Positions 586 to 20,000 of a DNA stretch of 20,000 bases are shown here, piece by piece. Below the pieces are notes generated by a model. The model ran no database searches. It was not told the origin of the DNA and saw only the letters and a list, made by a program, of their open reading frames with translations. Each line of letters begins with the position of its first letter. Within the stretch, counting starts at the first letter, position 1. Source of the DNA: Trichodelitschia bisporula (lineage: Eukaryota); contig ML996701.1 of NCBI GenBank assembly GCA_010356995.1, forward strand, positions 795,437-815,436, written 5' to 3'. The position numbers were made by a program, and so were the translations under genes.

Positions 586-1593
586 AGTCTGGACAGTGTC
601 TCAGGTGAACTTGCTGCATTTTTTGCATGCGGGAGCCGGCGGATAGAGAAATGGAAATGGAAACGGGAATGGCATGAATGATGCTAGATGAATAGGCTGG
701 CGTTAAGAAATTCAGATGCATGCGTGATTGCACCAATTGGTAGAAATGTCGTTGTCAGTGAAATGGTATCAAACTGTGAACTTTAAGCTCTGGGCATTCA
801 TCTTATCCTTGGTCTACCATATACTCACTACCAACGACTTCGAAACAGGCTCTCACTGGGGAAGCCTGTGCCTTCGTGACAGATATTTCGCCTTGAAGAA
901 GATTCACGGTCAAAATGAAGGTGACAAAATTATTAGCGGGATCCGCTCGGTGAGCTATCGCAGTTCAGTGACGATGGGCTGGTGACGGTCGAGTCCCGTC
1001 ATAGGTCCGACTCTGTCGATAAATACCACAAAGCGGTCCACTGTAACCCATTTTGACATCCTCATCACCACTCTAACACGGAGACTCTCGTCCCAGTCGT
1101 CATCCACGAGGGGAGCCTTGTCGTCTTGTACCAGTTCGCGCGAGGGTAGGCAATACCTGCGCTTTGTGACGATGCTCGACACCTGGATCAGTCTGGACCA
1201 GCTCCTGATATCTTCGCTGAAATGGAGCCTGGTGTGTGTCCCAATTGGTGCAGCACTCGCCGCTGTTGGAGTATCTGGTCAAAGTGTGTGCTGCCCTAAC
1301 CTATAGAAGTCGGATACGACAAATAGAGCGGAGGCTAAAACAGCAAGTTTGCTCAGAGATGCCATCTCGATGGTAGTGCTCTGCGTCTTACCGTGCATGA
1401 GGCGAGGCAACTAGCAGCACAACGTCGACATCCCTGAAGGCTCGAGCCAACGCGTCCACGGCATCTTCCACGTGCGGATGCCATCCGATGAGGGACACGG
1501 CTAAAGTCTCAATCGGCTGACTTTCGTACTTAGCTATATATTCTTCTCATATTCGCCAGCTACACCGATTGTTGTCGTACATACAATTGGTCG

Positions 1594-1606
1594 TATATAT
1601 ATATAT
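1594..1606. repeat. Short (TA)n microsatellite
   Basis: tatatatatatat, about 410 bp upstream of the ATG at 2020. Confidence 0.7.
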
Positions 1607-2019
1607 GTTGTGGTGGTATACATATCGGGGCGCGGCATGCCCTGTTGTCGGGTGAGGCGCGGGGACGGGAGGTGGAAAGTCGAGGTTGCTTGGCACTCAC
1701 CAACTCAGCCAGCCTGGGCAACGACTTCAAGTCACCAGCTCGCGATCCTTTCACCTGCCCACCCCGCCCTTTCACCTAAACCACAAGATAAATATCGATT
1801 TCGCGCCGCCAAGAATTCTATCTGCATCATACAACCTTTCTGGAAAGCCCAATTCTCGTTGCAAAAGCTTCGCGTCGACCTTCCATTCCGGCCCCAGCCA
1901 CCCCCGACACCGACACGCGTGCAAATTAAATCGCCGCCGGCACCTACCCACCGCGCACCCCCAAAACATCCATCCCGCGGCCAAAACTTTCCACTCCTTC
2001 AGCCTCGCGTTTGCCCGCC

Positions 2020-2703
2020 ATGGTGGTCCACGAGATATCGACGCGCGCCCAGGTCGTCGGCCTCAAGGCCGCGGGCATCACCAACGTGGAAATCCACCGC
2101 CTGACCGGCGTCCCCGCCCGCACCATCAACCTGATGTACGCGCGCGCCCAGCGTCGCGGCTTCAACCCCGAGGTCACGCCCGCCATCGTGCTCGACTCGC
2201 ACGTTCGCGACGCGCCGCGCTCTGGCCGCCCACGCAAGAACCCGAAGCCGGAAGATGGAAACCCGGCCGACCCTGCCAACCCTACTGCCGGTCCGACTGA
2301 CGGCGCGCTCCCCGCTGTCGACGACCCGTCCCGCGACGAGTCGCCACTGAGCCAGACGGAGGCGGCTGTGGCGACGCATCTCCAGGCGGCCGTGGCGGCA
2401 GAGACACTTCAACAGGATGCGCGTGCCGCCGGCGCTCAGTCCGGCGTGGGTGCTCAGTTGCCGCGTCCGCTGCTGCCTGGCATCACGTCGGCTAACCATC
2501 AAGGTCAGGGCCAGAGCGGTCCTTACTATTCCGGTATCGCCAACATGTCTCTCGTCGACCCGCAGCTTCGCAACCTGCCGCCGACGTACCCTGCGTTCCC
2601 GTACCAGCAGCCGCAGCAACAGCATCCGCAGCAACAGCAGCAACAGCAACAACAGCAGCAGCCACAGCAGCCGCAGCAGCAACCGCCGACCGAGGGATCT
2701 TAG
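2020..2703 (+). CDS. 227-aa protein: Tc1/mariner transposase-like N-terminal HTH plus GRPR motif, then a low-complexity and poly-Q tail; no DDE domain
   Basis: ATG at 2020 in good context (cccgccATGG). The N-terminus EISTRAQVVGLK...EIHRLTGVPARTINLMYARAQRRGFNP...VRDAPRSGRPRK resembles fungal Tc1-like transposase N-termini. Codons are strongly GC3-biased like the neighbouring host genes. Stop TAG at 2701-2703. Confidence 0.8.
   Translation: MVVHEISTRAQVVGLKAAGITNVEIHRLTGVPARTINLMYARAQRRGFNPEVTPAIVLDSHVRDAPRSGRPRKNPKPEDGNPADPANPTAGPTDGALPAVDDPSRDESPLSQTEAAVATHLQAAVAAETLQQDARAAGAQSGVGAQLPRPLLPGITSANHQGQGQSGPYYSGIANMSLVDPQLRNLPPTYPAFPYQQPQQQHPQQQQQQQQQQQPQQPQQQPPTEGS
2605..2682 (+). repeat. Coding CAG/CAA repeat (poly-Q, longest pure run Q11 at 2629-2661)
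   Basis: Encodes QQPQQQHPQQQQQQQQQQQPQQPQQQ from mixed CAG/CAA codons. Confidence 0.95.
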
Positions 2704-4768
2704 CGCTCTGTTTAGTGGGAGGAGGACGGCTTCGAGGCTCATGCCCTGCCGTAGAGTCTGCTATTTACAAAGGTATGGAGTTTGCGATGATACCCGGACT
2801 GTCTCGTATGTGGTGTTATTGGTCTGGATGCTGTCTTCGTAACTAGTGGTCGATGTCTTACGGTACCAATGCCACTGGATACAGCTTTACATGGTCTTTT
2901 CCAAGTGCTTACTCATGGATATGCGCCCAAATATACTTTTGATGCGGTGCCTTCCCACTGATTTCACGAGGTTTAGGTTCACGATCTCCAACACGGGGGA
3001 TATGCGGTCAGTCAACGAATACGCGCCGTAGACTGTTCTTTGGCGGTAATCGGATGCTTGGTCCACGTGCATTCAGCTGCCCTGGCGGTGGTTGACCCTT
3101 GCCGGATTTCGTCCAAACTGCCTAACCGAATACTTTGGTTGTGCAGCCGATTAGAGCCATATGGGAGCATGACGTGTGTCTAAGCTATTGGGCATGCCTC
3201 TGCTGTCAATACTTAACATCAATACCATCACCTTCTTCAGCGGCTTTGCCTTAGACTAATATTTCAACAGAATAAGTGACGAAGTGGCCGTTCGAGCACC
3301 TTTTAGTCACCGTTTCTTGACACACTTCTTCCCCTTTCTCGTCAATGATACAATCGGAGGAGGAGACAGATCCATCCTGATGGAGGGAAGAAGCCACGAA
3401 GGGAAGAAGCCACTACAGTATAATCCATTTACTAAATCACTGTGCACGAGCGGCCATGCTCACCTCTTAATATAGGGGAATCTCATTCGAAACTATGAAG
3501 CACACGGTCATCAGATTTGAAGCCGGCGCCGCAAGGCTAAGGCGATTTCCTGGACTCTGCCATCAGCCCTGGCAGTGCCGATAGCAAATCTTGCTCCCTT
3601 TGGGAACAGGCGACGATCAGCCATATCAGGGCATCATCAGAGCCGCCAAGCCTTACCGGGCATGCCGGTATAATAGCCAGAAGGCTCCTCGGCGGTTACA
3701 TCATCCAATCGGCCCGAACATGTATCCCGAGCTGGAGCAGTGACTTTGCCCGACTTTCGGGTGTCATTTCGAAGGGGCTCGAAGCTGTCGGCGGAGCCTT
3801 GTCGTCAGCACCGTCTTCGAGGTTCTCCTTTTGGAATTCACCCGGCCGACTGAAGCCAGATGAATGACTTGCCCTCCATCATTGAGTGACCAGCAGATGA
3901 GAATGTTCTTGGGATCAACAAGCAAGTACTTCAATTTGAAGGCGGTAAGAAACCAAACACGGGTATTTGTCATAGAACTCACGGTTATGGGCTTTCGACT
4001 AAAGAGTGACGCTTGATTCGAAGAGCATCTAGAACTAGAACTAAGCTGCAGGCCTGCACCGCCGCTCATTATCTCACCGCTTCGACGCCCGTTGATCTAG
4101 CTACTGTACAGCATCATCTTCATCAGTTTTGAAAAGCTGTGTACTTGTCGAACATGGCCTCCAGTCGTGCAAGGAGCATCCACTCTGTAAGTCCTCACCC
4201 TACGGTGCCCGCTGCTGTAATGTCGCAGTGTAATCACGCACTTCGCATCTGCTCCATGAGGCTGCGAACCAATGCCACATATTACGGCAATCTGCGGCAA
4301 TCTACGGGCGACCCTGCCGGACTACAAAAGCTCCGCAGCAAATTGCCATAGTGCTCTGCCTCTAGCACATGCCTTCAGCCTTGCCTTGTGGTCGCGGCCG
4401 AAGGATAGCCCGCTGACCTTGATCCTGGCCAATGCACCCCACACCGACGGATGAAATATCGAGGGAGTGGCTGAAACTCGGGATTTCCGGATGCCAACCG
4501 CCTCACTCTGCTTGAACCAGAGACTTGAGGGTGTTTGGCCAGGGGTTGGAAGGAAATATACGTGCCGTTCCTTCACACCAGAAGTGCAGGAGGGATCGGC
4601 AACTATTTTCTACCCGCCCATGAGTAATGGCACTGGGGCTGCATGGTGCCAATGCGTCCTCTTTGCACCTCTGCCTGATTGAATTTGAGATGCCCTACAC
4701 CTTGGCTTGTATAAACATTTACATACACGCTGACCGGGCCACAGCCTTCTGAGCGAGAATGTCATGAT

Positions 4769-6875
4769 ATGTCGCGACAACCGTCACCCGAATCGTCATC
4801 GGAATGGTGCCGCAAGAAGCGCAGAACGTTTGCATGTCACGCCTGCCGGCGAAAGAAGGTACGCTGCGATCGTGTGTACCCGGTGTGCGGGCGGTGTCGG
4901 TACTTTGGGCAGTCGGGACACTGCGTGTACGATTCGAAGCCGTCAGATGCGAGCGAGAGCGCCGCCTTTTCGTACTCGGTGCCGCCCGACACCCCCAGCG
5001 ACCGGCTGGCCGAGATGACGGATTTGGTGGTGCAGCAGTCACAGCGTATCAAGGAACTTGAGAGCCGAGTCGCCCACCTGGAGCTTGATTCGGGCCGCAC
5101 GTCGCCCATCGAGCGGGACTGCTTCTTCCAAAACAGTGGATCGGACAGCCGGTTCGGCGGGCCTAGCGCGCCGCTTAGCATCGTCGACACGTCGTTGATG
5201 ATCCTCACTAGCGTGAGTATTCTCATCTATGAGATGCGTCAGCTAATCTCCAGTTCCCCGAGCTTGCTATCTTCATGTCTGACCCCACCGGCCACAGCCC
5301 AGCGCTGCTCCAGGCACGGAGCGAGGCATGGCAGCTCAAGCCGCGGCTTGACTATGCGCGCCTGGTTGCGGCGGCGGCGGCGTCGAGCAGCCTGACCGAC
5401 TTGCTCCCTGACCAGGCCGAAGTCGCGCGGCTAACGGCGGCCTACTGGGAGCACCTTGAGCAAACGACGCGTGTGCTCCATGCGCCGACGTTCTGGGCCG
5501 CCTTTCGCGCGTTCGAAAACGGCACGCGCAGCGAACCCTTTGTTGTGGTGCTTTTGCTCGTCATGGCGGCCGCGAGCTGCATGGCACGTCCAGTGGCCTA
5601 CATCGGCATTAGCCCAGTCACCCGCGAGAGGGCCGTTACCTGGATCAATGCGTGCGCTGCATGGCTGGCTGGCGGGCCCAAGCTGGCGGTCCGCGAAGAG
5701 TTGCAGATCCGGCTGCTAATTTTGGTCGCCCGTCAGGCCAATGGCGTACCCAAGCTGTGGGAAGAGGCGGCGTCGTTACTCAATGACGCGCTTGCGGCCG
5801 GGCTGCACGTCGATGGTGGGCGCTTGGAGAAGACGTTTTCGATGGAAAACGCAGCCACCGGCCTGCCGGGCGTGCCGCGCGCCCCGCTATCCGTTTTCGA
5901 AAAGGAGATACGGCGCCGGCTGTGGGCGAGCATTGCCGAGCTCGAGTTGCAGGAGGCGTTCGACCGGGGGATGCCGTCGTCGGCGGCGGCAATGGCGTCG
6001 GACTGCGGGCCACCGGCCAATGTCAGCGACGACGACTTTCACCAGCTCTCGGCAGATTTACCGTCCCCCAAGATGCACACGCGTATGGCGTATCTGCACA
6101 CGTCGCACCGCAGCTTCCGGCTCCGTGTCGCGCTTAACAAGGCGGTTAACGACCCAACAACCGCCTTGACATATAACCGAGTACTTGCGTACGACGCCGA
6201 AGTCACAAAAGAGCTTGAGCAGCTGCCAAAAGACATCCCGAGGGTGGCAGCCCTGCAGCTTAACGTCCAGTTGCGCCAATTTCTGCTCCCGCTGCACGTC
6301 CCATTTGCGCGGCGCACCACTACGAACCCAAGGTACGCCTACTCGCGCATGGCGTGCGTCAACGCCGCGAGCGCCATCTTGCAGCTACATGCGGACTTGG
6401 AGACACCAAGTGCCAACATTATGCGCGAAGATGTCTTCCGGGCCGCGCTGACCCTGTGCCACAACATCGTCCTTTGGAAGGCCCTGAGCGGGGAGCCCTT
6501 CATGAACCAGCTCGGTGGACTGTTCCTCCAGCAGGTGGAGAAGGCTATCGAGCTGATCGAGGAAAAAATTATCTACGTGGGCCAGCACTGGGGCCAGATT
6601 TGGTTTGCCGTGGCCGGGCAGGGCATCCTCCGGACCGCTGTGGCTCCCCAATTCATTGAGAGCCACATGCAGGATATCACGAGCCGGCTGGCAAAGCTGT
6701 TCTACAAGGTGTTAGCGGCGCAGGAGGTGGATGTGAATAGAGGGGTAAACTTTTCCGCATACAACTCGCGCGGGCTGACTGACAATCATAGCGAAACGCC
6801 CCCGCCGTATTTGATAGTGAAGTACCGCATTCCGAGGATGGCCCACCGTGGCCGTGGAACGGAGTTTTTGGCTAG
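4769..6875 (+). CDS. Zn(II)2Cys6 fungal transcription factor with fungal-specific TF middle domain; exons 4769-5212, 5254-6744, 6792-6875
   Basis: CHACRRKKVRCDRVYPVCGRCRYFGQSGHC binuclear cluster; RVLHAPTF, AGLHVD and EIRRRLW middle-domain motifs. Intron 5213-5253 (GTGAGT..GCTAAT..CAG) joins ORFs 4769 and 5275 in frame. Intron 6745-6791 (GTAAAC..CTGAC..TAG) gives a last exon ending PWPWNGVFG*; this last exon is less certain. Confidence 0.9.
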
Positions 6876-7274: not shown

Positions 7275-8549
7275 CTAATTCTCGCCATCGCTCTCTTGCT
7301 CCTGCTTCTTCAAAATCTCTTTCCACTGTTCCGCAAACTCCCGCATCTGAGTGGGTCCTGCTGTGCTCGCATCAACGACATCACGCGGTAGCTTGTGTGC
7401 GCTATACTGCGGTGTGGAAAAGCTGTATGCCTCGGGATCATCGCGGCGAATGAGTCGGAATTCTGGCCTAAACAGCTCCACCACGTCGGACTCGGACTCC
7501 GACTCGGACTCGGGGTATGATATTGAGCCCGAAGCCTCCGCTTCGCCGTCAGGTGCCTCTGCCGTCTCAGCCGTCTCGCCCTCAACCGACTCGGTCGCTC
7601 CGGCCGTTTCTCCGCTGTTCATTACGTCGTTCGAGTCTGTGAGAAGTTCTAGCCAGCTAAAGAGGAGAGGATCCGTCCGTTGGGCCCAAGGATTGAAGTC
7701 TATAAGCCAGACGCGCTCGTAGGGCGGCGGGATATAAACGTCAAAGACGAAGTTGTCGTCTGGGAAGTCGCGAAGGTCTTCGTCGAAGAAGGCCTGAATC
7801 CGCTTCACAAGCCGGTCCTGCATTTCGAACAGAAATTCAAAGTGGTTTTGGTCGCGTTGGCAGATCCCTATGATTCGACTTTTGCGCACGAAACACCGGA
7901 ACTCGAGCGCGGGATTGAGCTCGACGTGCTTGCGCAGCACGAGGTAGTAGTCAATCTCCTGGGACGCACTGCCGTCGGCGCAATCATCGAACGCGTGGTC
8001 GAGGTCATGTGTCACGAAGTCGGAACTCTTGAGTAAGAGATAGACGTCGTTGGGCGTGCGGCATTCCATGCTATTGTTTAGCATGAACGTGGCGTCCTTG
8101 GGAGCGGACCAGTTGAGTTTCGGAACCACCTTGCCGCCTAGCTCGGCAATGGTGCGCTTGATGCTTTCGTGAATCTCGGGCCAGTCGGCCGAAGGATCGA
8201 CTTCCGGTTCGTCGGAATCATCTGTGAAGATGCCGCTATCAGCGTCAGAGTCGACGATGACGTCGGACTCCGGCGGAACCACGATCCCATCGGCACGGAG
8301 GTACTCGACAAACGGAACCGAGAGCTTGATAGTACGAGCCTTAGGCGTCACGGCCCGGTACCTAGGGGGTAAGCGGCGTCCCATGACGGTGTATACCTCG
8401 GGGGCGTACCGCGCGTGCCAGGAGGGATACGAGCAGTTCAGTATGTGTGCTTTGGTGAGAGGAGGGAATGGGAGTTCGGTGAGCCTCTCTGGGCCGCTCT
8501 TCTCAGGAGGTGCAAGGCTTGCCTCGGAGGAATGATTAGACTCCGCCAT
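7275..8549 (-). CDS. CDC123: Cell division cycle protein 123 (D123 family, ATP-grasp, eIF2 assembly factor); exons 8549-8410, 8361-7275
   Basis: Motifs [57 protein letters not shown] 48-nt intron at 8409-8362 (GTACGC..CTTAC..TAG) restores [11 protein letters not shown]. Start taken at ATG 8549 (MAESN). Confidence 0.95.
7486..7512 (-). repeat. Coding hexamer repeat encoding ESESESESD in CDC123
   Basis: Repeated tcggac/tccgac units on the + strand. Confidence 0.75.
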
Positions 8550-9070
8550 GCCGATGCGTTGCGGCGAGGTTGACGTCGCTGTTGATGTTGATGTTGTGGT
8601 TAACGTCGAAGTTGGTACTTGCCAATGAAATCCAGACTTTTGTCGCAAGACTGATCCCGAGAGGACTGAGTAGTGTACAAGAATGTGATCGCTCTTGACT
8701 CTTCCGTTCAACACCTTATCGACGTTAGTTTTTAAACACAGGAAGAGTCATTGGTAATGACTGGAGGCGAACCAAATATGTAATTCAACCGTCGAAACTG
8801 AATCAACAACAGGGGCTCTCCGAATTTTCAACCGATCTGATTTCCCAATCATGAGAGTAATAAAGACCACAAGTGTTATTGTAGAGATCCTGAAGGCCAG
8901 GAATTTTTGACAGATATCTTTCAGTTGGCGTCTGCGGCTTCGACTTTGACCATCGCGCTTGGCAGGCCATCATCCGCCACACGCCATCAGTGCGCCACAC
9001 CCCGCTCCTCCCACCATCACCGACCTCGCCGTTGCACGATCACCTGTCTACCGTACAACTATCAACCATC

Positions 9071-19157: not shown

Positions 19158-20000
19158 ATGAACCAGCAATCGGACAACCAACAACAGAGGCTGAGCGAGC
19201 TGGCGGAACTCGCACGGACGAACCCCAATGAATTCATTCGCATCTTTGACCAAGGAAGGGAACGCGAGACGATACCTGACGTTCTAACCCCGGAATCGAC
19301 CACTCCGTCAAGCTCAGCCTTCGCCCAGCTCATCGCGGCTCTACAAGGGTTTACCGCAGCCGCAGCTGCGGCCCCACATGCTCTCCAGACAATAACTGCC
19401 GCTTCCGCACGTCGGGATAGCGTGAAGGTCACACCCTATGACGGCAACCCAGAACTCCTCCACCGCTTCCTCGCCGACCTCACTTCGAAGTTGAAACTTG
19501 AGAAATGTGAAGACGAAGAGGAGAAGGTTGTCATTGCCGAGAGCCTCCTTGTCAAGAACAACCGCGCTGATAAACTCATGGACTGCCATTGCGTCCTCGG
19601 TCAAACGACCATCAAAACGTTTGACGGATGGAAACAGGCTCTTACCGACCTCTGCCAGGACACCGGCGCCCAGGAGAAAGCGAACCTCAAATTTCACGAC
19701 TTCCACTTCGATAAGTCCCTTCATAAGTCTTTTACCGAATTCTTCTCCGAATTCTTCTCCGAATTCTTCTCCGAATTCTTCTCCGAATTCTTCTCCGAAT
19801 TCTTCTCCGAATTCTTCTCCGAATTCTGCGCCCTCGCCGGAAAAACATGCAAATCGGACTCGGAAAAATACGACCAGCTCGTGATGGGAACGCCAGCTTG
19901 GTTAGGACGCCTCGCCCGGCCTATCCCCACTGAAGCCCAACGACCATTCTGGCGAGCTCTTGGGCACTACTACAATGACGTTTTTCTTGAAGACGAACAA
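19158..20000 (+). mobile_element. Retrotransposon Gag/capsid-like ORF (Ty3/gypsy-like), 3'-truncated by the window; absent from the ORF track
   Basis: Open from ATG 19158 to the window end (281 codons, no stop): MNQQSDNQQQRLSELAELAR...VTPYDGNPELLHRFLADLTSKLKLEKCEDEEEKVVIAESLL...IKTFDGWKQALTDLCQDTGAQEKANLKFHDF...KSFTEFFSEF..CALAGKT. Motif order matches the retrotransposon Gag capsid pattern. No pol gene or paired LTRs are visible. Confidence 0.7.
19735..19827 (+). repeat. Perfect 12-bp minisatellite (GAATTCTTCTCC)7 plus partial unit, encoding (EFFS)7-EF
   Basis: Seven identical units at 19737-19820, then gaattct; eight GAATTC sites in phase. Confidence 0.97.

What the first reader, a model, noticed from the sequence alone, without database searches (positions are those of the whole stretch)
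2020..2703. Candidate domesticated Tc1/mariner DNA-binding domain rebuilt as a poly-Q transcription-factor-like gene
Seen: the first 73 codons (2020-2238) end in DAPRSGRPRK, followed by an acidic/Pro-rich linker, an SLVDPQL segment, a Q/P-rich tail and a clean stop. There is no DDE/D domain downstream, no terminal inverted repeats I can see, no disabling mutations, and codon usage is host-like. Established: Tc1/mariner transposases bind their TIRs through an N-terminal paired-like HTH followed by a GRPR AT-hook-like motif, and Q-rich tails are typical of activation or prion-like domains. Inference: this is an exapted transposase DNA-binding module working as a host regulator, or as a repressor that occupies TIRs of related elements.
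Basis: partly seen in the sequence, partly recalled or inferred. Interest (0 to 1): 0.72.

Follow-up and report, generated by a model that had tools for sequence, protein, structure and literature searches.

The report
Fungal gene built from transposase head
A fungus appears to have kept only the first DNA-gripping piece of a jumping-gene enzyme, joined it to a floppy glutamine-rich tail and turned it into an ordinary single-copy, spliced gene, probably a new gene regulator; similar tamed pieces turn up in other filamentous fungi.

Summary
The ORF (2020-2703, 227 aa) is as described. Residues 1-74 are the first HTH plus RSGRPRK linker of a fungal Tc1-type DD34E transposase family (58% identical to a 432-aa member). 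The second HTH and the catalytic domain are absent. It looks like a host gene. It is single-copy apart from the CAG repeat, has no TIRs, and no catalytic domain of this family was found in the genome. An RNA contig spans the ORF with a GT..AG intron in the 3' UTR. GC3 in the HTH is 68/74, against 42/75 in a broken paralogue, while 25 of 27 family-conserved residues are kept. A modelled homodimer passes its controls but may reflect solved structures. No orthologue was found, so dN/dS is missing; DNA binding and activation are untested. A TIR-repressor role lacks a cognate element. Other Pezizomycotina carry conserved HTH+GRPR+unrelated-tail genes, including a Q-rich one in Botryosphaeriales; orthology to it is neither shown nor rejected. 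The scan earlier noted a different, double-HTH Tc1 domestication on other fungal DNA (e1-7647260). Verdict: domestication likely (~0.8); regulator role ~0.6; new member of a known kind.

The parts
2020..2703 (+). Intron-less ORF, 227 aa (P0001): Tc1-derived HTH + GRPR linker + low-complexity tail
   Evidence: start in GCCCGCC-ATG-G context and the only ATG in 1725-2030; same sequence is on record in NCBI/UniRef as a one-member cluster
2020..2241 (+). First HTH (PAI-like) of a fungal Tc1 DD34E transposase, aa 1-74; predicted helices 6-17, 22-29, 33-45, 59-62
   Evidence: 58% to 432-aa P0203 over aa 4-78; Pfam HTH_23 23.6 bits, under the 24.6 cut-off; AlphaFold2 mean pLDDT 92.6; GC3 68/74
2218..2238 (+). 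RSGRPRK: AT-hook-like linker motif (possibly also a nuclear signal; inference)
   Evidence: G69, R70, P71 are 96-100% conserved in 50 transposase-type homologues; motif role from passages of 10.1101/656579
2242..2601 (+). Non-transposase tail, aa 75-194: acidic/Pro, then Ala-rich, then G/S/P/Y-rich segments, incl. SLVDPQL (2548-2568)
   Evidence: No match to a transposase profile in any frame; no BLASTP hit among the session's proteins other than itself; GC3 86/120, P 9e-6 against 0.52
2605..2682 (+). Q/P tract, 21 Q in 26 residues (CAG/CAA repeat)
   Evidence: the only part of 1400-3400 with DNA matches elsewhere in the genome (48 of 49 matches)
1725..2019 (+). C-rich leader covered by the RNA contig, with no ATG (5' UTR by inference; a contig end is not a transcription start)
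   Evidence: X3 record 9 covers 1725-2592 without gaps
2773..2970 (+). 198-nt intron in the 3' UTR (GTATGG...CTGAT...GAG), 69 nt after the stop codon
   Evidence: Joint 2770>2969, GT..AG at cut +2, in RNA-like runs X3 and X4 (one sample) and not in DNA run X1; ends read
2971..3168 (+). 3' UTR exon as far as the X3 contig reaches (end inferred)
   Evidence: Contig length 1246 = 1046 + 200, consistent with bin depths

Best explanation
A domesticated transposase fragment. The 5' end of a Tc1-type DD34E transposon (first HTH + GRPR linker) was kept after the second HTH, catalytic domain and TIRs were lost, and now heads a host gene with a disordered Q/P-rich tail. Shown: origin, truncation, single copy, a spliced RNA contig, host-adapted codons with preserved protein motifs. 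Inferred: it is translated and nuclear; helix 3 (aa 33-45) reads the major groove and RSGRPRK the minor groove of short AT-containing sites descended from TIR half-sites; pairing through helix 1 may give two reading heads in place of the lost second HTH; the tail recruits co-regulators or condensates. It would act as a low-abundance, lineage-restricted transcription/chromatin regulator, possibly kept low by nonsense-mediated decay through the 3' UTR intron. About 0.8 for domestication, about 0.6 for the whole statement.
For: Origin: 424 library proteins at E<=0.001. Of the best 150, 50 run on into transposase sequence. 42 of 46 full-length relatives could be parsed and all 42 are D34E. Truncation. 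Copy number: two HTH matches in the genome (itself and a paralogue with a TAA inside). RNA: a contig spans 1725 to about 3168 with a GT..AG joint; the same runs skip two introns at 8357-8406 and 8712-8771, in the D123/CDC123 gene region, that the DNA run keeps. Selection, indirect: HTH GC3 68/74 vs 42/75 in the broken paralogue (Fisher P 6e-7), reached by 1% of 397 host 74-codon windows; codon log-ratio +0.59 bits/codon vs -0.11 (paralogue), -0.31 (another Tc1 ORF in the genome, L004), intergenic maximum -0.03; 25 of 27 family-conserved positions kept (transposase-type mean 23.2; paralogue 20). Fold: three-helix HTH, pLDDT 92.6. Dimer model of aa 1-78: score 0.64 vs best control 0.01, runs agree in 100% of contacts, pLDDT >=76, interface aa 5-30 and 53-62, leaving helix 3 free; that mark was reached by 21 of 30 solved pairs and 0 of 23 single chains in microbes, by 17 of 29 in eukaryotes but only 1 of 7 without an older solved relative, so the pass may be from memory of solved transposase heads. 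The isolated PAI of Sleeping Beauty binds transposon DNA (PMC11754664, passages). Precedent in kind: Botryosphaeriales HTH+Q-tail proteins keep 72/72 and 63/72 domain residues while tails share 136/150 and 62/141.
Against: No orthologue: no database protein exceeds 58% identity in the domain, so no dN/dS or synteny; I could not calibrate this against neighbouring genes. RNA evidence is contigs from one sample, flagged as a guess by the tool; the region downstream is widely covered and partly antisense-spliced, so transcription alone does not show function; translation is not shown. HTH+GRP followed by a short or unrelated tail is common among predicted proteins (85 of 135 with the motif), and many are probably decaying fragments. 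The codon contrast rests on one paralogue and one unrelated Tc1 ORF; the donor element's own GC3 is unknown (one foreign copy has 0.39). Structure matches to Tc3 (Z 5.8 and 5.7) are below the level that marks more than a common HTH, and IstA ranks higher; Foldseek found nothing at E<=0.001. Sleeping Beauty PAI binds as a monomer (PMC11754664). SLVDPQL-like motifs occur in 3 other long ORFs of this genome's fetched DNA (4 hits in 16,108 aa), so the motif is not diagnostic.
Confidence: 0.6

Rival explanations
1. Transposon guard: the protein occupies TIR-derived sites (e.g. on MITEs or incoming Tc1 elements) and blocks or silences them instead of regulating host genes.
For: Intact HTH+GRPR. A TA-flanked, about 180-nt hairpin repeat with about 36-nt arms occurs in this genome: 20 matches, the non-self ones at 72-88% identity. 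An intact, distant DD34E ORF (L004, 382 aa) exists.
Against: No catalytic domain of the cognate family was found in the genome. L004 aligns only weakly (27-28%) and from residue 39 of P0203 on and has no TIR in its flanks. No MITE arm resembles the flanks of this gene (7 arm-region tests per arm, lowest p 0.07). The family's TIR sequence could not be obtained.
Confidence: 0.12
2. Functionless relic: a transposon 5' fragment that landed in front of GC-rich or formerly coding DNA, is transcribed by read-through and has not yet decayed.
For: No orthologue. Such truncated ORFs are common. The genome holds a broken copy of the same domain. Pervasive RNA cover of the region. 3.8% of shuffles of the tail are stop-free.
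Against: A recent fragment should keep flanking element DNA, a TIR and close relatives; none found (best identity 58%). An old one should have lost motifs and GC3 as L002 has; this one keeps 25/27 motifs with GC3 0.92. Only ATG of the leader is the ORF start, in a strong context.
Confidence: 0.12
3. Domesticated but not sequence-specific: an HMGA-like architectural or scaffold protein that uses the AT-hook and the helix-1 dimer surface for loose chromatin binding or protein pairing.
For: The second HTH is lost. The invariant residues cluster in the core and the GRP motif. Dimer model.
Against: Recognition-helix residues R34, Y40, A43, R46 match the transposase consensus; isolated PAI binds its site in Sleeping Beauty (PMC11754664).
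Confidence: 0.14
4. On history only (compatible with the best explanation): this gene is the orthologue of the Botryosphaeriales HTH+Q-tail gene, i.e. one old domestication, not an independent one.
For: Same architecture; VDPQLR here vs VDPSLR in P0139. The AU test does not reject a joint clade (p 0.34).
Against: The free tree leaves P0001 in an open fork away from that clade. Identity is 45-48% to those proteins vs 55-57% to transposase-type ones. They share EDGKRTGRP where this one has transposase-like DAPRSGRP. A profile of their C-termini scores this tail no better than shuffles (243 of 500 equal or higher).
Confidence: 0.2

Closest known systems
Fungal Tc1-like DD34E transposases (Pfam HTH_Tnp_Tc3_2 + DDE_3; about 420-445 aa; e.g. 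P0203, Fusarium P0196/P0233/P0255)
   Same: First HTH and DAPRSGRP linker, up to 58% identical.
   Different: No second HTH, no DDE, no TIR, single copy, host-type codons, unrelated tail.
Drosophila CG4570, cag and toy ('DNA-binding module' route of Tc1/mariner domestication; PMC13548663, abstract and sections 15 and 20 read)
   Same: Catalytic domain lost, HTH kept, no TIRs, expressed.
   Different: Those have orthologues and measured purifying selection (dN/dS about 0.1 for CG4570); animal; this one keeps only the first HTH plus a poly-Q tail and has no orthologue yet.
SETMAR/Metnase and PAX paired domain
   Same: Tc1/mariner-type DNA-binding head used by the host; SETMAR's EDEERSGRPS aligns with the family's EDAPRSGRPS (E 0.12); weak fold matches to 7s03, 1pdn. 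PAX origin from Tc1 is recalled.
   Different: Both keep two HTHs; SETMAR has a SET domain and many genomic TIR copies to bind; no such copies are known here.
Fission-yeast Cbp1/CENP-B family (10.1101/2022.12.06.519325, passages)
   Same: Fungal host genes from IS630-Tc1-mariner-group transposases.
   Different: pogo/Lemi-derived, mostly keep tandem HTHs and the DDE fold.
Uncharacterised Botryosphaeriales protein (Botryosphaeria KAF4313877.1, Macrophomina KAH7061311.1, Phyllosticta KAK8197538.1)
   Same: Same domain + GRPRK + Q/P-rich tail, 233-274 aa.
   Different: 45-48% identical in the domain, tails not alignable; conserved across genera, whereas this gene is a singleton.

Membership tests
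Active Tc1/mariner transposon | N-terminal first HTH and GRPR-like linker | tested here: met
Active Tc1/mariner transposon | Second HTH (RED-like, PF01498) | tested here: not met
   No Pfam hit; no profile hit past aa 76 in any frame
Active Tc1/mariner transposon | DDE/D catalytic domain | tested here: not met
Active Tc1/mariner transposon | TIRs with TA target duplication | tested here: not met
   Only chance-level inverted repeats
Active Tc1/mariner transposon | Dispersed copies | tested here: not met
   DNA matches only in the CAG tract; one 36% broken paralogue; genome search counts are lower bounds
Domesticated transposase-derived gene | Homology to a transposase | tested here: met
Domesticated transposase-derived gene | Single or low copy, no TIR/TSD | tested here: met
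Domesticated transposase-derived gene | Intact ORF | tested here: met
   no other letters or gaps in the laid contigs, though the CAG tract 2593-2690 was skipped by the tool
Domesticated transposase-derived gene | Expression | tested here: met
   Spliced contig in X3/X4, one sample; RNA status inferred from intron skips absent in the DNA run; level and translation not shown
Domesticated transposase-derived gene | Syntenic orthologues in related species | tested here: inconclusive
   None found; no related genome is held, and the absence was not calibrated on neighbouring genes
Domesticated transposase-derived gene | Purifying selection (dN/dS < 1) | not testable with these tools
   No orthologous DNA; indirect signs only (codon adaptation with motif retention)
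Sequence-specific transcription factor | Folded DNA-binding domain with intact recognition helix | tested here: met
   Model only; consensus residues kept
Sequence-specific transcription factor | Measured binding motif, nuclear location, effect on transcription | not testable with these tools
   Needs bench work
Botryosphaeriales HTH+Q-tail orthogroup | Monophyly of the domain | tested here: inconclusive
   Not joined in the free tree; AU p 0.34
Botryosphaeriales HTH+Q-tail orthogroup | Shared C-terminal motifs (helix + YPPPPP..VP) | tested here: not met
   Profile score -6.1 bits; 243 of 500 shuffles equal or higher

The most novel reading that the evidence does not exclude
Filamentous ascomycetes have repeatedly and independently turned the first HTH + AT-hook of one Tc1 DD34E family into small dimeric regulators with freshly acquired tails: a poly-Q tail here and in Botryosphaeriales, a Cys-rich tail in the P0137 group, a folded C-terminal domain in the P0006/P0265 group, an acidic tail in Thermoascus. 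They would form an unrecognised, turnover-prone source of lineage-specific transcription factors that falls just under Pfam cut-offs, with this gene a living case and its broken paralogue (L002) possibly a dead one.
Probability: 0.4. Interest if true: 0.65.

Novelty: new member of a known kind. Interest (0 to 1): 0.45.

Why it matters
Domesticated Tc1/mariner DNA-binding heads are documented in animals, and pogo-derived ones in yeasts; five literature searches listed no paper describing Tc1-derived single-HTH genes in filamentous fungi, though most subscription journals are not searched. If these are regulators, fungal transcription-factor inventories miss a class (HTH_23 scores of this protein and 4 of 6 tail-bearing relatives scanned sit under the cut-off and 2 have no hit), and the 74-residue module gives a simple test of how half of a transposase DNA-binding domain is rewired into a host regulator. 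The Botryosphaeriales copy is directly testable in culturable fungi.

Tried and rejected
1) Hidden catalytic domain or frameshifted transposase tail: none in six frames. 2) TIRs/MITE relic in the flanks: chance-level only. 3) Cognate elements in the genome: P0084 and P0203 match only the two HTH loci and, weakly, L004. 4) Orthologue in metagenomes: 1 locus of 218 candidate stretches, a 12-residue match to the GRPRKNPKPE motif in an AT-rich acidic ORF, rejected as motif coincidence. 5) Parent-element DNA for TIRs: none in viral contigs (78 candidates, 0 confirmed); one decayed copy in a prokaryote-labelled contig without TIRs (L020). 6) PDB sequence search: 0 hits with the single domain; with the profile only weak HTH hits. 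7) ESM Atlas: no usable feature hit for the whole protein; for aa 1-80 best 0.86, under the 0.9 bar; top structure neighbours are ascomycete transposase clusters (TM 0.86, 0.83); leads only. 8) RIP signature: none in the ORF (TpA/ApT 0.56). 9) Orthology to the Botryosphaeriales gene through the tail: not supported. 10) Tree placement: 74-78 columns do not resolve the donor. 11) No run is on record as RNA; X3/X4 are treated as RNA because of intron skips; contig depth was not used to rank genes. 12) The Tc3 bipartite-domain structure paper was not held, so HTH1-mediated pairing in Tc3/Mos1 is recalled, apart from a passage in PMC6698652. The script printed 6 of 15 planned pair comparisons before stopping.

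Full report
Setting. The window is from a 25.8-Mb, 44-contig genome (G000:C15). Neighbours are a Lysine_decarbox (LOG-type) gene, a Zn2Cys6 factor, D123/CDC123, a TACO1/YebC gene and a HEAT-repeat gene. With the named homologues all from Pezizomycotina, this points to a filamentous ascomycete (inference).

Observation. The ORF is exactly as reported: 227 aa, DAPRSGRPRK ending at 2238, acidic/Pro linker, SLVDPQL, 21 Q in 26 residues, TAG. The same protein is on record as a one-member cluster. No inverted repeat above chance brackets it.

Origin of the head. A search with aa 1-78 found 424 proteins at E<=0.001. Of the 150 listed, 135 carry the GRP motif; 50 continue into transposase sequence, 44 have tails under 40 aa and 41 have other tails. 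A profile search of longer proteins returned 187 hits among 8000 scored candidates, mostly annotated HTH_Tnp_Tc3_2, many with DDE_3. Of 46 relatives of 410-460 aa, 42 could be parsed; all have D34E spacing, with about 155 residues between the first two aspartates. The closest full-length member tested is 58% identical over aa 4-78. AlphaFold2 gives a three-helix HTH at pLDDT 92.6. Structure searches are consistent but not diagnostic: Tc3 1u78 Z 5.8 (rmsd 3.6, 61 aligned), 1tc3 Z 5.7 (rmsd 2.1, 49 aligned), below IstA at 6.6 and all under Z 8; Foldseek had no match at E<=0.001. The sequence evidence carries the assignment.

What is missing. A profile of the 46 full-length transposases matches the window only at the head; the tail is not out-of-frame transposase. 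So the second HTH is lost as well as the DDE domain. In Tc1-like transposases the GRPR motif lies between the PAI and RED subdomains and is thought to bind the minor groove (10.1101/656579, passages). The gene thus keeps PAI + linker only.

Genome context. Protein searches of the genome find the gene, one paralogue on C2 (36%, TAA inside helix 2, preceded by a partial repeat of helix 1, no in-frame ATG ahead of the domain), and a distant intact DD34E ORF on C4 (L004). No catalytic domain of the cognate family was found; these counts are lower bounds. At DNA level only the CAG tract matches elsewhere.

Expression. No run is on record as RNA. Runs X3 and X4 (one sample) skip introns at 8357-8406 and 8712-8771 that DNA run X1 keeps, so I treat them as RNA. 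X3 has a 1246-nt contig covering 1725-2592 without gaps, and both runs show a joint 2770>2969 that reads GT..AG. The intron is 2773-2970, 69 nt after the stop; lengths add up to a contig from 1725 to about 3168; the only ATG in 1725-2030 is the ORF start, in GCCCGCC-ATG-G context. The GT..AG orientation implies a plus-strand RNA (inference). Junctions >=50 nt after a stop can trigger NMD, and the exon junction complex acts in Neurospora NMD (PMC6173133, one passage), so the message may be NMD-sensitive (inference). Against over-reading: X4 joins this contig to downstream, partly antisense-spliced RNA, and level and translation are not shown.

Selection, indirectly. HTH third positions are 68/74 G/C, against 42/75 in the broken paralogue (P 6e-7); only 1% of 397 overlapping host windows reach 0.92 (two of the nine host stretches included their stop codon). 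Against an intergenic model the HTH scores +0.59 bits per codon, the non-repetitive tail +0.19, the paralogue -0.11, L004 -0.31, and no intergenic window exceeds -0.03 (host genes formed the training set). One other frame of the tail (+0.14) and one antisense frame (+0.17) also score positive, so the tail's signal is weaker than the head's. Meanwhile 25 of 27 family-conserved positions are kept (paralogue 20). Silent sites that look like the host's, with amino acids that look like the transposase's, are best explained by long purifying selection on a translated protein. The donor's own GC3 is unknown; one foreign copy has 0.39.

Orthologues. None found: 2 hits among 21 candidates (one is itself), 0 among 52 longer ones, none above 58% in the profile searches, and one spurious metagenome locus. 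No related genome is held, so this may reflect sampling.

Parallel cases. Among 285 proteins held, 65 have non-transposase tails; they form 8 groups and 22 singletons, with near-identical cluster members counted. One group of 9 looks like out-of-frame transposase text (inference), i.e. relics. Others are conserved. Botryosphaeria and Macrophomina proteins share 72/72 domain residues, and 63/72 with Phyllosticta, whose tail shares only 62/141; they have Q/P-rich tails. A Cys-rich-tail group keeps 66/72 and 49/67. A further group is fused to a common C-terminal domain. P0001 sits in an open fork of the tree, outside the Botryosphaeriales clade, but a joint clade is not rejected (AU p 0.34); its tail does not fit their C-terminal profile. 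Independent capture is more likely than orthology.

Mechanism. Most likely a nuclear DNA-binding regulator. Isolated Sleeping Beauty PAI binds its site, as a monomer (PMC11754664, passages). A two-copy model of aa 1-78 scored 0.64 against a best control of 0.01, with full agreement of contacts and pLDDT >=76; the interface is helix 1 and aa 53-62, leaving helix 3 free. The mark was met by 21 of 30 solved pairs and 0 of 23 single chains in microbes, and by 17 of 29 in eukaryotes but only 1 of 7 without an older relative; the Tc3 domain is described as a dimer (PMC6698652, passage), so the pass may show likeness only. The tail's role as an activation or condensate region is inference from composition. 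A TIR-guard role is possible but has no cognate element; a TA-flanked hairpin repeat family exists (lead from e1-7702650, checked) with no link to this HTH.

Comparison with what is known. It works like the DNA-binding-module route of Tc1/mariner domestication in Drosophila (PMC13548663; abstract and sections 15 and 20 read). It is not a transposon (second HTH, DDE, TIRs and copies tested, not met). As a domesticated gene it meets homology, copy number, intact frame and expression; orthology is inconclusive and dN/dS untestable. Searches listed no description of such genes in filamentous fungi (listings only; PMC5751038 passages do not discuss them; supplements were not read).

Verdict. Real feature; domestication about 0.8; regulator reading 0.6; new member of a known kind; interest 0.45, higher (0.65) if the repeated-capture pattern across Pezizomycotina holds.

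Noticed in passing
L002:1393-1788 (G000:C2:1171447-1171842): Broken paralogue of the same HTH: TAA in helix 2, a decayed partial repeat of helix 1 in front, a short acidic tail ending in RRRRA, GC3 0.57. Its tail is not transposase either, so it may be a dead domesticated gene. Expression not tested.
   Followed up: partly
L004:955-2103 (G000:C4): Intact 382-codon Tc1-like DD34E ORF of another family, single match, no TIR found, GC3 0.50, between a C2H2 zinc-finger gene and a GDI/REP-like gene (names by recalled resemblance). Recent insertion or catalytic-type domestication is open.
   Followed up: partly
P0167/P0168/P0069/P0170/P0139 (Botryosphaeriales): Conserved HTH+GRPRK+poly-Q/P gene with length-variable Q tract, shared by Botryosphaeria, Macrophomina and Phyllosticta; the best candidate for dN/dS and knockout work.
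   Followed up: partly
P0137/P0277/P0278/P0279/P0089: Unnamed fungal-type family with this HTH followed directly by a conserved CRCK..CQRC motif (possible metal site).
   Followed up: partly
P0006/P0032/P0141/P0265: Same HTH fused to a shared C-terminal domain of about 200 aa or more (precomputed PF28402 on P0265; no hit in the local Pfam copy).
   Followed up: no
P0012/P0190/P0205 (Claviceps): Both HTHs kept, DDE replaced by an acidic repeat (EAGSPEMD-like), in several Claviceps species.
   Followed up: no
window 5226-5284 and 6701-6763: RNA contigs skip CT..AC introns inside the plus-strand Zn2Cys6 gene, i.e. spliced antisense RNA, apparently running on from the convergent D123/CDC123 gene; a GT..AG skip at 6743-6791 is also seen.
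   Followed up: no
window 1283-1348 and 3399-3474: A GT..AG skip in intergenic DNA upstream (X4 only, depth 3.5) and a non-canonical 74-nt skip downstream (X4 only).
   Followed up: no
L022:2092-2271 and L027-L037: TA-flanked hairpin repeat of about 180 nt; several copies lie within 10 kb of contig ends and share longer flanking sequence, suggesting part of a subterminal repeat.
   Followed up: partly
L020:646-2841: Decayed member of the parent Tc1 family (two internal stops) on a contig filed in a Bacteroidetes MAG, probably eukaryotic contamination; it is followed in frame by a long Q/E-rich coiled-coil-like stretch.
   Followed up: partly
window 19158-20000 (+): Open ORF resembling a retrotransposon Gag by recall (no Pfam hit) with a tandem FSEF-type repeat; GC3 0.63.
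   Followed up: no
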